Source: Octopus sinensis (Eukaryota). From it: DNA of 64,000 bases. Shown piece by piece: positions 11,660 to 59,640 of this stretch. Where the stretch lies: contig NC_042998.1 in NCBI RefSeq assembly GCF_006345805.1, positions 19,592,001-19,656,000 on the forward strand, read 5' to 3'. Within the stretch, counting starts at the first letter, position 1. The number at the start of each line of letters is the position of its first letter. The notes beneath the pieces were generated by a model. That model was not told the origin of the DNA. It worked only from the letters and a program-made list of their open reading frames with translations, and searched no databases. Both the position numbers and the translations under genes were made by a program.

Positions 11660-11690
<31 letters not shown>

Positions 11691-12541
11691 AATAAAAATA
11701 TAAATTTTAATATAAATAATAATAATGATAACAATGATAATAATAAAAATATAAATTTTAATATAAATAATAATAATAATAATAATGATAATAATAAAAA
11801 TATAGATTTTAATATAAATAATAATAATAATAATAATGATAATAATAAAAATATAAATTTTAATATAAATAATAATAATGATAATAATGATAATAATAAA
11901 AATATAGATTTTAATATAAATAATAATAATAATAATAATGATAATAATAAATATATAAATTTTAATATAAATGATAATAATAATAATAATAATAAAAATA
12001 TAGATTTTAATATAAATAATAATAATAATAATAATGATAATAATAAATATATAAATTTTAATATAAATGATAATAATAATAATAATGATAATAATAAAAA
12101 TATAGATTTTAATATAAATGATAATAATAATAATAATGATAATAATAAATATATAAATTTTAATATAAATAATAATAATAATAATAATGATAATAATAAA
12201 AATATAGATTTTAATATAAATAATAATAATAATAATAATGATAATAATAAATATATAAATTTTAATATAAATGATAATAATAATAATGATAATAATAAAA
12301 ATATAGATTTTAATATAAATGATAATAATAATAACAATGATCATAATAAAAATATAAATTTTAATATAAATAATAATAATAATAATGATAATAATAAATA
12401 TATAAATTTTAATATAAATAATAATAATAATAATAATGATAATAATAAAAATATAAATTTTAATATAAATAATAATAATAATGATAATAATAAATATATA
12501 AATTTTAATATAAATAATAATAATAATAATAATAGTAATAA
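11660..12541. repeat. AT-rich minisatellite, about 20 units of 39-45 bp
   Basis: Unit (aat)n-gat-aataataaa(a/t)atata(a/g)attttaatataaat. Unit lengths vary in steps of 3 nt. Confidence 0.95.
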
Positions 12542-37103: not shown

Positions 37104-37583
37104 TTAACAATTAAGGATAACTTCTTAATAAGGAATCTTAACAAGAAATTATCAGGTAGATAGCGTGAAAAACCTCATAAGAGAAAAATTTCGAAAATAA
37201 TTCTTTCTTATTGAACATATTAATTTATATATAGAGGGCATTATTACACATACATGCCACACGCTAAGAGGGACATTAGTCATTTCTACCAAAAAATTTT
37301 ACTAATCATACCCAATGCAATTTTTTCAAAGCCAGACATTTAAAAAATGAATTTAGTCTTGTATCACCTGTGATTTCGTACTTACCGCAGTTGCGACCGT
37401 ACTCATCAGCAAGACTGATTCTGAACATATCATAAATAAACGACCTCGCACCGTCAAAGCCGAACAGCTATCTGCTCGACTCCAACGAAGCACATGGGGA
37501 AGTTTACATATAATACATCCGGTAGATGTAAGAATTATTAGCGTGTGGCATGTATGTGTAATAATGCCCTCTATATATAAATA

Positions 37584-53872: not shown

Positions 53873-54299
53873 GATCAATAAATGGTGAGGTTGTGTTGAC
53901 CGCACGTGGAGAAATGATAAGCAATGAAAAATTGTATAAATGCAGAATGCTCGATTGAAAGAAAATTCTAATGAATTGAGAAAATGAAAAAATATAGAAA
54001 TATATATTTATTCAAACCGGTTTTCGTCATAGTTTGACTTATCAAGAATAGTTAGGTGAAAAGGTTTTTTTTAAAAATGAGAAAGGGGAAAAAAAGTTGC
54101 ATTGTTTTTTGCAAAAGAATAATAGTAGTAAATATGTATAAAAATTTTAAAATAAATACTCCGATACATTGTGAGTTCGTTGTGTATCTTGAGTTTAATG
54201 ATTGTTCATGAAAAAATTACCTTGAGGTATTAGGATCCAATGGGATTAAGGCCATGTGTTGTTTGGTTTAATTTAGGATGTTGGCAACATCCTAAATTA
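53873..54299 (-). mobile_element. HHR element H7 ending in a 31-nt palindrome
   Basis: Starts at (TA)n and ends in taatttaggatgttg-g-caacatcctaaatta (54269-54299). Confidence 0.55.
54009..54050 (-). ncRNA. Minimal type-I hammerhead ribozyme, U3-A8 core variant (family H7)
   Basis: Minus strand UAUUC-UUGAUAA-GUCA(AACUA)UGAC-GAAA-ACCGGU-UU-GAAUA. Palindromic helix III AACCGGUU. Confidence 0.75.
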
Positions 54300-56879: not shown

Positions 56880-57025
56880 AGATTTACTTCAACATTTGTC
56901 AGACTATTTTCCTTGCTTTGAAACCGCGACCTGTTCACTGACAAAATTCCGTCAGTAAACAGGTCGCGGTTTGAAAGCGACGAAAATATTTTGACAAATT
57001 AAATTAAAATGTTGAAGTGAATCTC
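56880..57025. repeat. Imperfect palindrome, about 65-bp arms
   Basis: aaaccgcgacctgttcactgac-aaaattcc-gtcagtaaacaggtcgcggttt. Confidence 0.9.
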
Positions 57026-57150: not shown

Positions 57151-57267
<117 letters not shown>

Positions 57268-57285
57268 TATGTATATATATATATA

Positions 57286-58012
57286 TAATAATAGTTATCG
57301 CCATACTAATATGGCATTCTTATAAAAATAAGAATAAAGCTGTCCGCTTATTAGCTCCATGAGGCCATCGCCTTAAGTTAGCTATTTGATACACAAACTG
57401 TATCCATATAACCTTCGAACAAGGGAGGCCAGTCGCTCCACACTACTTGACCTCCCTTGTTCGAAGGTTATATGGATACAGTTTGTGTATCAAATAGCTA
57501 ACTTAAGGCGATGGCCTCATGGAGCTAATAAGCGGACAGCTTTATTCTTATTTTTATAAGAATTCCATATTAGTATGGCGATAACTATTATTTTCCGGGA
57601 ACGCTGCCGCTGTTCTCTTTTAGAGAGACTTAGTAATTTTAATATTTCTAATATTGAAAACAAGTGGATGTATTCCAACGAAACTAGGTAAATAAAACCA
57701 TCGAACAGAGATTGTCGGAAGCGACACCTACTGGCTGGCTACGCTGCATTGAAAAGGGGCAATACCCCGAAACGCGTCTGTAGCTGCCGGTCAAGTAGTG
57801 TGGAGCGACTGAGCTCCCTTGTTCGAAGGTTATATGGATACAGTTTGTGTATCAAATAGCTAACTTAAGGCGATGGCCTCATGGAGCTAATAAGCGGAGA
57901 GCTTTATTCTTATTTTTATAAGAATGCCATATTAGTATGGCGATAACTATTATTTTCGGGGAACGCTGCCGCTGTTCTCTTTTAGAGAGACTTAGTAATT
58001 TTAATATTTCTA
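57286..58012 (+). mobile_element. HHR element H6: inverted about 165-bp fragment plus about 1.55 tandem copies of a 362-bp unit, in (TA)n
   Basis: 57453-57650 is repeated at 57815-58012. 57286-57452 is the reverse complement of about 57789-57954. Confidence 0.85.
57743..57784 (+). ncRNA. Minimal type-I hammerhead ribozyme, U3-A8 core variant (family H6)
   Basis: GCUGCA-UUGAAAA-GGGG(CAAUA)CCCC-GAAA-CGCG-UC-UGUAGC. GUC cleavage triplet, palindromic helix III ACGCGU. Confidence 0.85.
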
Positions 58013-58015
58013 TTA

Positions 58016-58066
<51 letters not shown>

Positions 58067-58224
58067 ATATATATGCATATGTATATATATATATATATTA
58101 TATATATATATATATATATCCATATGTGTATATATATATACATATGTATATATATATATATACATATATGCATATGTATGTATATATATGCATATATATG
58201 TATATATATACATATATGCATATG

Positions 58225-58268
<44 letters not shown>

Positions 58269-58345
58269 TACATATGCATATATATACACACACACACACA
58301 CATGTATATATATATACATATGCATATGCATATATATATATATAT

Positions 58346-58392
<47 letters not shown>

Positions 58393-58396
58393 ATAT
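58013..58396. repeat. Compound (TA)n tract
   Basis: Direct reading. Confidence 0.95.
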
Positions 58397-59640
58397 ACGA
58401 GGGGCTTCTTTTAGTTTCCATCGACCAAATTTACTCACGAGCCTTTGGTCGGCTCGAGGCTATAGCAGAAGATACTAGCCGAAGGTGCCACACAGTGAGT
58501 TTGAACCCCGAACCAAGAAGTTGGGAAACAAGCGTTTTAGCATGCGACCACACCAGCGATTACGTTGATAATATGCCATTCAAGCTTAATATAAAATTCA
58601 AGGAATGTATGATCTGCTTTCTATGCTAATTCTTTTGTTATATGATTTAAAATATCATTATTCTTTTAAAAGCATAATCTTCGTCATTTTCTCGGTATTA
58701 AAGTATTGTGTGTGCTTTTATGACTTTCTGTTTTAAATTTACGATTTTGGATAGTTGTCCATATGGGACTATGCAAGACCTGCTGCATGGAATGCAATTC
58801 TGAGAGATGTACATTGCATAATTATCGTTTACGCATTTTTGCAAAAGTCCACTTCCGGTATCGAATAGAAAAGACGTAATTTCCAAATATCTCTCTGTTT
58901 TATAACCTTGGAATTAATGCAAATTGTTTCTGTGGTGAAAGTGCAAAGAAGAAAGAAAAGAAAAACTAAGAAAAGAAGAAAAAAAAAGAAAAATAATACA
59001 CGACTTCTTTCTTGCTCTTTTGTTTTCCTTTCTAATGCGTTCTCTTTCGCTTTCTCTTCTGTTCCAGGCTCTGTGTTATTTCCCATTTAAGTCTCACATT
59101 CGCTTCACTCTAAAATTAATGATCATTTCGCAAATAACGATAATTCTATTAGCAGTTCTGATAATAATAAATGACATTAGATTTAACTATTTCGACTTGA
59201 CAATTTTAATAATTTTCTAATATTTTATCTTTTGTTGTCAATTATTTTATACAGTGTAGGGTGAAAATCCTGTCTGTTTGTCATATTCATTCACCAGTGT
59301 CCTATATTAATGAAATTTGCATTTCACTAATGAAGTGAACGGCTTTTACTTGAGAGACTGAGATGTAATAGTAATAATATAATTTTATCTTTATATTAAA
59401 AAAAAAATTACAATCAATATTGATTGTATCTAATCTTTCGTTACGTTGCACATTTCAGGAAGATTATTTATTTCGAAATAGGTTTCAGAAACAAGATAGC
59501 AGAACAGATAAGGCTATTCATTAATTTGTCGTGAACAGAAATACTTTAAACACATTTCGTTTTCGTTTCGTCTTAATATGTTTCTAGAAGAAGATATTAC
59601 CGAACAATTTCTCAGTTCTGCTAACACCTAGGCATAGTAT

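What the first reader, a model, noticed from the sequence alone, without database searches (positions are those of the whole stretch)
57286..58012. Young retrozyme-like insert: 362-nt unit, 1.55 tandem copies plus inverted fragment, U3-A8 hammerhead
Seen: near-identical repeats with a 362-bp period, one HHR with core UUGAAAA and a GUC site, and an inverted 5' piece forming a hairpin with about 140-bp arms (57287-57427 vs 57452-57592). Inference: a more-than-unit-length permuted copy is what reverse transcription around a 362-nt circular RNA, or of a pLTR tandem, would leave. The fold-back would give long dsRNA, a potential ADAR or siRNA substrate.
Basis: partly seen in the sequence, partly recalled or inferred. 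Interest (0 to 1): 0.8.

Follow-up and report, generated by a model that had tools for sequence, protein, structure and literature searches.

The report
Hammerhead mini-element with Penelope-type insertion
A 730-base insert in a TA microsatellite holds about one and a half copies of a 362-base non-coding unit with a predicted hammerhead ribozyme, plus a mirror-image fragment, and is likely a small parasite copied into place by the enzyme of a Penelope-like retrotransposon, a known kind of animal mobile element.

Summary
Observation confirmed: 362-nt period (1.57 units), one type I hammerhead with a U3-A8 core, and a 166-nt inverted arm, all between (TA)n tracts. The unit is a family trait. In public-run contigs the seam that closes it is crossed by copies 11-13% diverged, and no RT or endonuclease ORF was found. 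Copy ends are not free permutations. They fall at two CTATTAT sites 63 nt apart, 176 and 238 nt past the predicted cleavage site. With the inverted 5'-truncated arm and the microsatellite target, this is the published insertion signature of Penelope-like elements (pLTR partial tandem, inversion, tail). Best reading: a non-autonomous, retrozyme-sized PLE derivative, inserted in trans by PLE RT-endonuclease from a multimeric or circular RNA. This copy has one hammerhead, so it fails the two-ribozyme test for an active retrozyme. Circle, cleavage, expression and ADAR/siRNA use are untested. The class is known (Cervera 2014, 2020; Craig 2021; Li 2026 preprint). The scan noted similar anatomy in other genomes, not this sequence. 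New member of a known kind; interest 0.33.

The parts
57169..57286 (.). Left (TA)n tract, the insertion target; a target-site duplication cannot be read in it
57287..57452 (-). Inverted, 5'-truncated copy (166 nt) of unit positions 57789-57954; starts at end site 1 (CTATTATT), no tail
57448..57452 (.). Head-to-head junction at the 5-nt microhomology TGACC, shared by the reverse strand of 57789-93 and the forward unit at 57810-14 (as it stands in copy 1)
57448..57654 (+). Upstream partial unit (pLTR-like 145 nt plus 63-nt tail)
57585..57592 (+). 3'-end site 1, CTATTATT (again at 57947-54); inferred RT start without tail
   Evidence: a run contig ends into (AT)n at 57587
57593..57655 (+). 63-nt tail between the two end sites; highest summed depth in all 4 runs and shared with a related family
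57655..58016 (+). One full 362-nt unit, about 41% GC, no ORF of a known family; predicted highly self-paired
57727..57798 (+). Predicted type I hammerhead, U3-A8 core, palindromic helix III (predicted to work as a dimer); predicted cut after 57778
   Evidence: PMC4209133
58010..58016 (+). 3'-end site 2, CTATTAT, running into (TA)n; inferred RT start with tail
   Evidence: 33 contigs of run X1 leave the unit into (AT)n at the equivalent place, 57654
58017..58397 (.). Right (TA)n tract

Best explanation
The insert is one copy of an abundant 362-nt non-coding repeat carrying a predicted hammerhead ribozyme, and it was likely pasted into a (TA)n tract by the reverse transcriptase-endonuclease of a Penelope-like element acting in trans. 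Shown: unit length, 1.57-unit direct part, 166-nt inverted arm, two fixed 3' ends at a CTATTAT motif 63 nt apart, a 5-nt microhomology at the head-to-head junction, and the same unit seam in diverged copies from two coded organisms. Inferred: the PLE protein nicks both strands of the AT-rich target and primes two cDNAs at the two CTATTAT sites inside the RNA, the motif pairing with the nicked TA target. One cDNA runs 166 nt; the other runs 569 nt, past one unit. Their far ends are joined by microhomology. Inferred: the template was longer than one unit, either a multimeric transcript of a tandem master locus or a 362-nt circle made by dimeric hammerhead cleavage and host ligation. I put the circle at about 40% and cannot separate the two here. 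This copy, with a single ribozyme, could not release a unit-length circle by itself.
For: Anatomy matches the published PLE pattern: partial tandem, adjacent inverted 5'-truncated copy, tail at one end only, (TA)n bias (PMC8557442; PMC3846280). Two internal RT starts that define the tail, extension from both strands and AT-rich cleavage were shown in vitro for an anole PLE (PMC11167929). (4 of 24 listed runs, contigs only): all 28 bins covered in 4 of 4 runs. The seam 57654/57655 is bridged by 31 or more letters on both sides by X1 record 5 (57611-57791, 23 differences in 181) and X3 record 30 (57612-57694, 9 in 83). 33 X1 contigs leave into (AT)n at 57654, 1 X16 contig at 57587, and single contigs leave into unique DNA at 57650 and 57651. 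Another strand switch (57472/57614, 1 contig) lies elsewhere, so inversions differ between copies. 20 of 24 listed runs, in 12 studies and 7 coded organisms, hold half or more of the words. The unit is structured beyond the ribozyme: z -5.6 without it, against -1.6 to +1.7 in 8 control stretches; as a circle z -5.8, 62% paired. Of 35 listed variable places, 1 lies in the 42-nt ribozyme core region, and it keeps a G.U pair. No RT or GIY-YIG hit in 195 of the 227 open frames scanned.
Against: The autonomous partner was not found. No genome is held and only 24 of 181 loose ends were shown, so a rare coding version is not excluded. The tail is 63 nt, longer than the 30-40 bp quoted in PMC8557442. 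Contigs cannot show multimers, RNA ends or circles. One core variant against about 4.5 expected at the rate of the rest of the unit is weak evidence. Metazoan PLE hammerheads cleave poorly in vitro (PMC4209133), 8 of 9 Xenopus retrozyme dimers did not cleave (bioRxiv 10.64898/2026.07.22.740005), and hammerhead cleavage was dispensable for insertion in PMC11167929. PMC3846280 explains head-to-head junctions by self-priming on an antisense template, a different route from my two-nick model.
Confidence: 0.75

Rival explanations
1. The insert is only the 5'-truncated end of an autonomous, coding PLE, and the 362-nt period was made at insertion by joining a partial pLTR+tail to a second truncated cDNA.
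For: This is the commonest state of PLE copies (PMC8557442; an unchecked scan note, e1-7858391, reads a similar case so). The hammerhead lies in the pLTR and the tail overlaps the ORF start in known PLEs. 157 of 181 loose ends were not shown.
Against: A seam made at insertion should be private to one locus, yet contigs 11-13% diverged, in two coded organisms, cross it, and a predicted hairpin spans it. None of the 24 loose ends shown was supported as a common continuation other than (AT)n, subfamily variants or single flanks. The 43-aa frame across the tail found no longer relative (weak evidence). A 1-nt deletion at 57610 in 9 contigs of three runs would break that frame.
Confidence: 0.12
2. 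The insert is a classical retrozyme copy made by rolling reverse transcription round a 362-nt circle, entered at a random point by any RT (e.g. a LINE), with the inversion as an accident.
For: More-than-unit length; size, GC and predicted self-pairing as in mussel and axolotl retrozyme circles (PMC7229834).
Against: The 3' ends seen fall at two sites with one motif, not round the unit. The arm duplicates the 3' end, whereas LINE twin-priming inverts a non-overlapping upstream part (recalled).
Confidence: 0.07
3. The structure arose at DNA level (local tandem duplication and fold-back of a solo pLTR), or the hairpin is an assembly artefact.
For: The Li preprint proposes local amplification of solo pLTRs. 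PLE inverted structures trouble assemblers. No listed contig piece spans the whole unit or shows this locus's own inversion junction.
Against: Arm and direct part end at the two separate family end sites. The arm holds 21 nt (unit 57789-57809) absent from the adjacent copy and has its own letter at 57429, so it is not a mirror of its neighbour. The seam is family-wide.
Confidence: 0.06

Closest known systems
Metazoan non-LTR retrozymes (Cervera & De la Pena 2020, PMC7229834; Li, Clavereau & Pollet 2026, bioRxiv 10.64898/2026.07.22.740005)
   Same: 150-450-bp non-coding repeat under 50% GC with a type I hammerhead of canonical helix sizes (6 and 4 bp, short palindromic helix III); predicted self-paired; PLE origin and mobilisation already proposed. 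Mussel units are 350-390 bp.
   Different: This copy has one hammerhead, not two or more; its core is U3-A8; it carries the PLE inversion and tail, which the sections I read do not report for retrozymes; circles and cleavage are untested.
Endonuclease-bearing Penelope-like elements, insertion anatomy (Arkhipova 2013, PMC3846280; Craig 2021, PMC8557442; Frangieh 2024, PMC11167929)
   Same: Partial tandem forming a pLTR, adjacent inverted 5'-truncated copy, tail at one end, hammerhead upstream of the RT start sites, AT-rich or microsatellite target.
   Different: No RT-GIY-YIG ORF: the tail runs straight into the hammerhead region. The tail is 63 nt rather than 30-40, and both end sites share one 7-nt motif.
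Non-autonomous PLEs such as Chlamydomonas MRC1 (PMC8557442) and pLTR-mediated trans-mobilisation in Adineta (PMC3846280)
   Same: Non-coding units that form pLTRs and head-to-tail copies through PLE machinery in trans.
   Different: Most Chlamys elements lack canonical hammerheads; the host here is an animal, octopus-like by its repeat landscape (recalled, not tested).
U3-A8 hammerhead variant of Schistosoma Cercyon PLEs (PMC4209133)
   Same: Same core covariation, mostly single motifs; the paper also reports dual minimal hammerheads 100-700 bp apart on opposite strands.
   Different: Those are minimal hammerheads (helix II 7-8 bp, an extra unpaired base, no helix III). This one has a 4-bp helix II, no extra base, a 2-bp palindromic helix III and an extended stem I.

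Membership tests
Non-LTR retrozyme | Short (150-450 bp), low-GC, non-coding repeat unit | tested here: met
   362 nt, 41% GC; longest frames under 75 aa, no family hit
Non-LTR retrozyme | Type I hammerhead in the unit | tested here: met
   By structural descriptor and folding; no Rfam match
Non-LTR retrozyme | Two or more consecutive units with complete hammerheads (active retrozyme, Li 2026) | tested here: not met
   One hammerhead in this copy, so I do not file it as an active retrozyme; in that scheme it would be a monomer
Non-LTR retrozyme | Multimeric arrays elsewhere in the genome | tested here: inconclusive
   The unit closes on itself in 4 of 4 runs, but contigs cannot tell 1.5-mers from multimers; no genome
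Non-LTR retrozyme | Self-cleavage and unit-length circular RNA in vivo | not testable with these tools
   Needs a cleavage assay, northern blot or RNase R; only contigs were available
Non-LTR retrozyme | Highly self-paired predicted circle with the hammerhead free to fold | tested here: met
   z -5.8, 62% paired, stems I and II formed in the circular MFE; prediction only
Autonomous EN+ PLE | ORF with RT and GIY-YIG endonuclease | tested here: not met
   None in the insert; no RT or GIY-YIG Pfam hit in 195 of the 227 frames of the window
PLE-mobilised non-autonomous element | Partial tandem forming a pLTR | tested here: met
PLE-mobilised non-autonomous element | Adjacent inverted 5'-truncated copy | tested here: met
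   57287-57452; another switch point in X1
PLE-mobilised non-autonomous element | Tail at one end only, from two fixed 3' ends | tested here: met
   63 nt, longer than the published 30-40
PLE-mobilised non-autonomous element | Microsatellite or AT-rich target | tested here: met
   (TA)n on both sides; (AT)n flanks in X1, X10 and X16
PLE-mobilised non-autonomous element | Shared 3' end or pLTR with an autonomous PLE in the same genome | not testable with these tools
   No genome; a related family shares the tail in 4 of 4 runs, but its coding state is unseen

The most novel reading that the evidence does not exclude
This family is a true circular-RNA retrozyme whose copies are written by a PLE enzyme that enters the circle at two motif-defined sites (CTATTAT) by pairing with nicked (TA)n DNA and often stops at the hammerhead-cut 5' end. 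Both cDNAs here end only 10 and 31 nt short of the predicted cut. Its thousands of likely copies would then be a genomic record that directly links retrozyme circles to PLE target-primed reverse transcription, a link so far argued from co-occurrence and phylogeny, and show that a U3-A8 hammerhead can drive it.
Probability: 0.25. Interest if true: 0.6.

Novelty: new member of a known kind. Interest (0 to 1): 0.33.

Why it matters
The class is published, so the locus itself is ordinary: two more hammerhead inserts sit at (TA)n tracts in the same 64 kb. Its use is as a test case. The retrozyme papers propose PLE mobilisation from co-occurrence and pLTR phylogeny; this family shows PLE insertion marks (fixed double 3' ends, tail, inversion) directly on a non-coding retrozyme-sized unit, and a census of its ends could decide between circle and linear-multimer templates. 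My seven literature searches of an open-access library listed no paper describing a cephalopod retrozyme family. Subscription journals, Repbase/Dfam and the supplement of PMC7229834 (unreadable) were not seen and may list it.

Tried and rejected
No whole genome is held, so no copy census. Rfam: 0 matches at gathering score; 21 weak matches at E<=10, none a hammerhead family, the best being miRNA-like hits to the hairpin or (TA)n. A pattern scan for the ribozyme core gave 1 metagenome and 2 viral loci, all the same 25-nt chance match without stem I or other similarity; rejected. Pfam on 195 of 227 open frames (32 were not sent): 4 weak hits below cut-off, no host gene and no PLE ORF, so whether the locus lies in an intron is unknown. 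Protein search with the 43-aa frame over the tail: no candidate. Expression: no RNA holder listed on record; X10 and X16 are only guessed to be RNA and hold flank-bearing contigs, so nothing is concluded. Editing: A>G places 3, 3, 4 and 1 in X1, X3, X10 and X16, no excess, contigs only; no conclusion. A splice-like acceptor (AG 57622-23) and donor (GT 57688-89) would make a 64-nt exon with the ribozyme in the intron, but no such joint was among the 4 listed; left as an idea. The idea that 5' ends mark the cleavage site fits this copy (10 and 31 nt) and loosely two other ends (unit positions 57458, 57472), but not ends at 57614, 57618 and 57635; RT arrest at the ribozyme hairpin explains it equally. 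The 57812-to-57452 joint was not counted as proof of periodicity, because this copy holds it too. The scan's notes hold no look-alike by sequence or in this genome.

Full report
Observation. The insert lies between two (TA)n tracts (57169-57286, 58017-58397). It has a direct part of 569 nt with period 362 (57448-57654 = 57810-58016, 98%) and an inverted arm of 166 nt (57287-57452) that is the reverse complement of 57789-57954 (98%). Its outer 145 nt also pair with 57448-57592 across a 16-nt loop. No other copy lies in the window.

Ribozyme. A descriptor for type I hammerheads gave 3 cores in 64 kb and none in 10 shuffles. The one here has a 6-pair stem I, core UUGAAAA (U3, A8), a 4-pair stem II, the palindrome ACGCGT as helix III and a GUC triplet (cut predicted after 57778), plus a distal stem I. 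Stems I and II fold with probability 0.98 or more in isolation, in the direct part alone, and in a transcript that stops just after the ribozyme. At equilibrium in the whole insert, the arm pairs with copy 2 and stem I falls to 0.05. Two copies of helix III pair as a 6-bp duplex, the dimer mode described for metazoan hammerheads. Rfam did not detect it. The U3-A8 core is published for Schistosoma PLE hammerheads (PMC4209133; I read parts 1-2 of 4: results and discussion). The helix sizes here are those that paper calls canonical, not minimal.

Is the unit real? No genome is held. 20 of 24 listed runs, from 12 studies and 7 coded organisms, hold at least half of the words. I laid one non-redundant unit (57452-57813) on 4 of them, all contigs: 3911, 1665, 22 and 18 contigs were laid and 28 of 28 bins were covered in each. 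The informative seam is 57654/57655, where the tail meets the hammerhead region; under the truncated-PLE reading it would be private to this locus. Among the 32 of 5750 pieces shown, it is bridged by 31 or more letters on both sides by X1 record 5 (23 differences in 181) and X3 record 30 (9 in 83), and crossed more briefly by others. Summed depth is of the same order on both sides (1e5-1e6 in the DNA-like runs; the tool warns that this is no copy number, so high abundance is an inference). The unit is unusually structured even without the ribozyme (z -5.6; 8 controls -1.6 to +1.7), and as a circle (z -5.8). One of 35 listed variable places lies in 57743-57784 and it keeps a G.U pair; about 4.5 were expected, which is weak support.

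Ends. The arm starts at CTATTATT (57585-92 / 57947-54) and the direct part ends at CTATTAT (58010-16), 63 nt further on. Of the 24 of 181 loose ends shown, exits into (AT)n or unique DNA fall at 57654 (33 contigs), 57651, 57650 and 57587, that is, at these same two sites, 176 and 238 nt past the predicted cut. 5' entries vary (57458, 57618, 57635), and a second strand switch lies at 57472/57614. A related family shares the tail in all four runs, and the tail has the highest summed depth. The head-to-head junction here uses a 5-nt microhomology. Against the majority letters of the runs this copy has private letters at 57564, 57651, 57678 and 57813; with the other differences between its pieces that is about 1%, so it is recent but not brand new, or carries assembly errors.

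Mechanism. PMC8557442 (passages and section 15) and PMC3846280 (passages) describe partial tandems, an adjacent inverted 5'-truncated copy, a tail at one end and microsatellite bias as PLE hallmarks, and report non-autonomous and trans-mobilised units. PMC11167929 (parts 1-2 of 4) shows in vitro that a PLE protein cuts AT-rich DNA on both strands and starts reverse transcription at two internal sites that bound the tail, downstream of the hammerhead, without needing cleavage. I infer the same here: two cDNAs, 166 and 569 nt, primed at the two CTATTAT sites and joined head to head. The longer one needs a template of more than one unit: a multimeric transcript or a circle. PMC7229834 (passages and parts 2-4 of 6; supplement unreadable) shows circles for coral, mussel and axolotl retrozymes and names PLEs as likely mobilisers. 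The 2026 preprint (parts 1-3 of 5; supplements not seen) derives animal retrozymes from pLTRs, defines active ones by two or more ribozyme-bearing units, and found cleavage in 1 of 9 dimers. This copy fails that definition. Against my model: the partner PLE is unseen, the tail is longer than published, and PMC3846280 prefers self-priming on an antisense template for such junctions.

What was not shown. No RT or endonuclease frame was found in the insert or in 195 of the 227 frames of the window, and the frame over the tail has no longer relative (weak). Expression, circles, cleavage, editing and small RNAs are untested. The fold-back would give about 145-166 bp of duplex if the locus were transcribed, which holds for any inverted PLE insertion. 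The host looks like an octopus by its SINEs and microsatellites; that is recalled and comes from no call.

Verdict. It works like a PLE-mobilised, non-autonomous, retrozyme-sized element (0.75). It is not an autonomous PLE and not, as this copy, an active retrozyme. The class and each anatomical feature are published, and the scan's unchecked notes report similar anatomy in other genomes but not this sequence. New member of a known kind; interest 0.33. The bolder reading, a circle entered at motif-defined sites and ended at the ribozyme cut, stands at 0.25 and can be tested by a census of copy ends.

Noticed in passing
window 37230-37575 (- strand; core at 37409): A 345-nt insert at a (TA)n tract with 38-nt perfect terminal inverted repeats and a canonical C3-G8 type I hammerhead with a stable helix III; no other copy in the window and no similarity to the finding. 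Either a PLE-type insert with a short inverted arm or a MITE-like element carrying a ribozyme.
   Followed up: partly
window 53873-54299 (- strand; core at 54045): A second U3-A8 hammerhead motif with palindromic helix III (ACCGGT), in a segment that starts with a near-perfect 31-nt palindrome (54269-54299) and ends at (TA)n after an AC-rich stretch; probably an older PLE end.
   Followed up: partly
window 57622-57689: A splice-like acceptor and donor frame a 64-nt segment over the tail and the seam, which would place the ribozyme in an intron; PLEs are known to keep 5'-UTR introns. No spliced joint was seen.
   Followed up: partly
window 57733-57738 / 57787-57792, tables 3, 5c and 7: A subfamily in runs X1 and X3 differs on both strands of the distal stem I in ways that look compensatory; the two sides come from different contigs, so their linkage is inferred.
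   Followed up: partly
window 56880-57025: An imperfect hairpin of about 145 nt, MITE-like, sitting inside a SINE-like repeat just upstream of the finding; read by eye.
   Followed up: no
window 11664-12541: A 51-nt AT-rich minisatellite of 17.6 copies.
   Followed up: no
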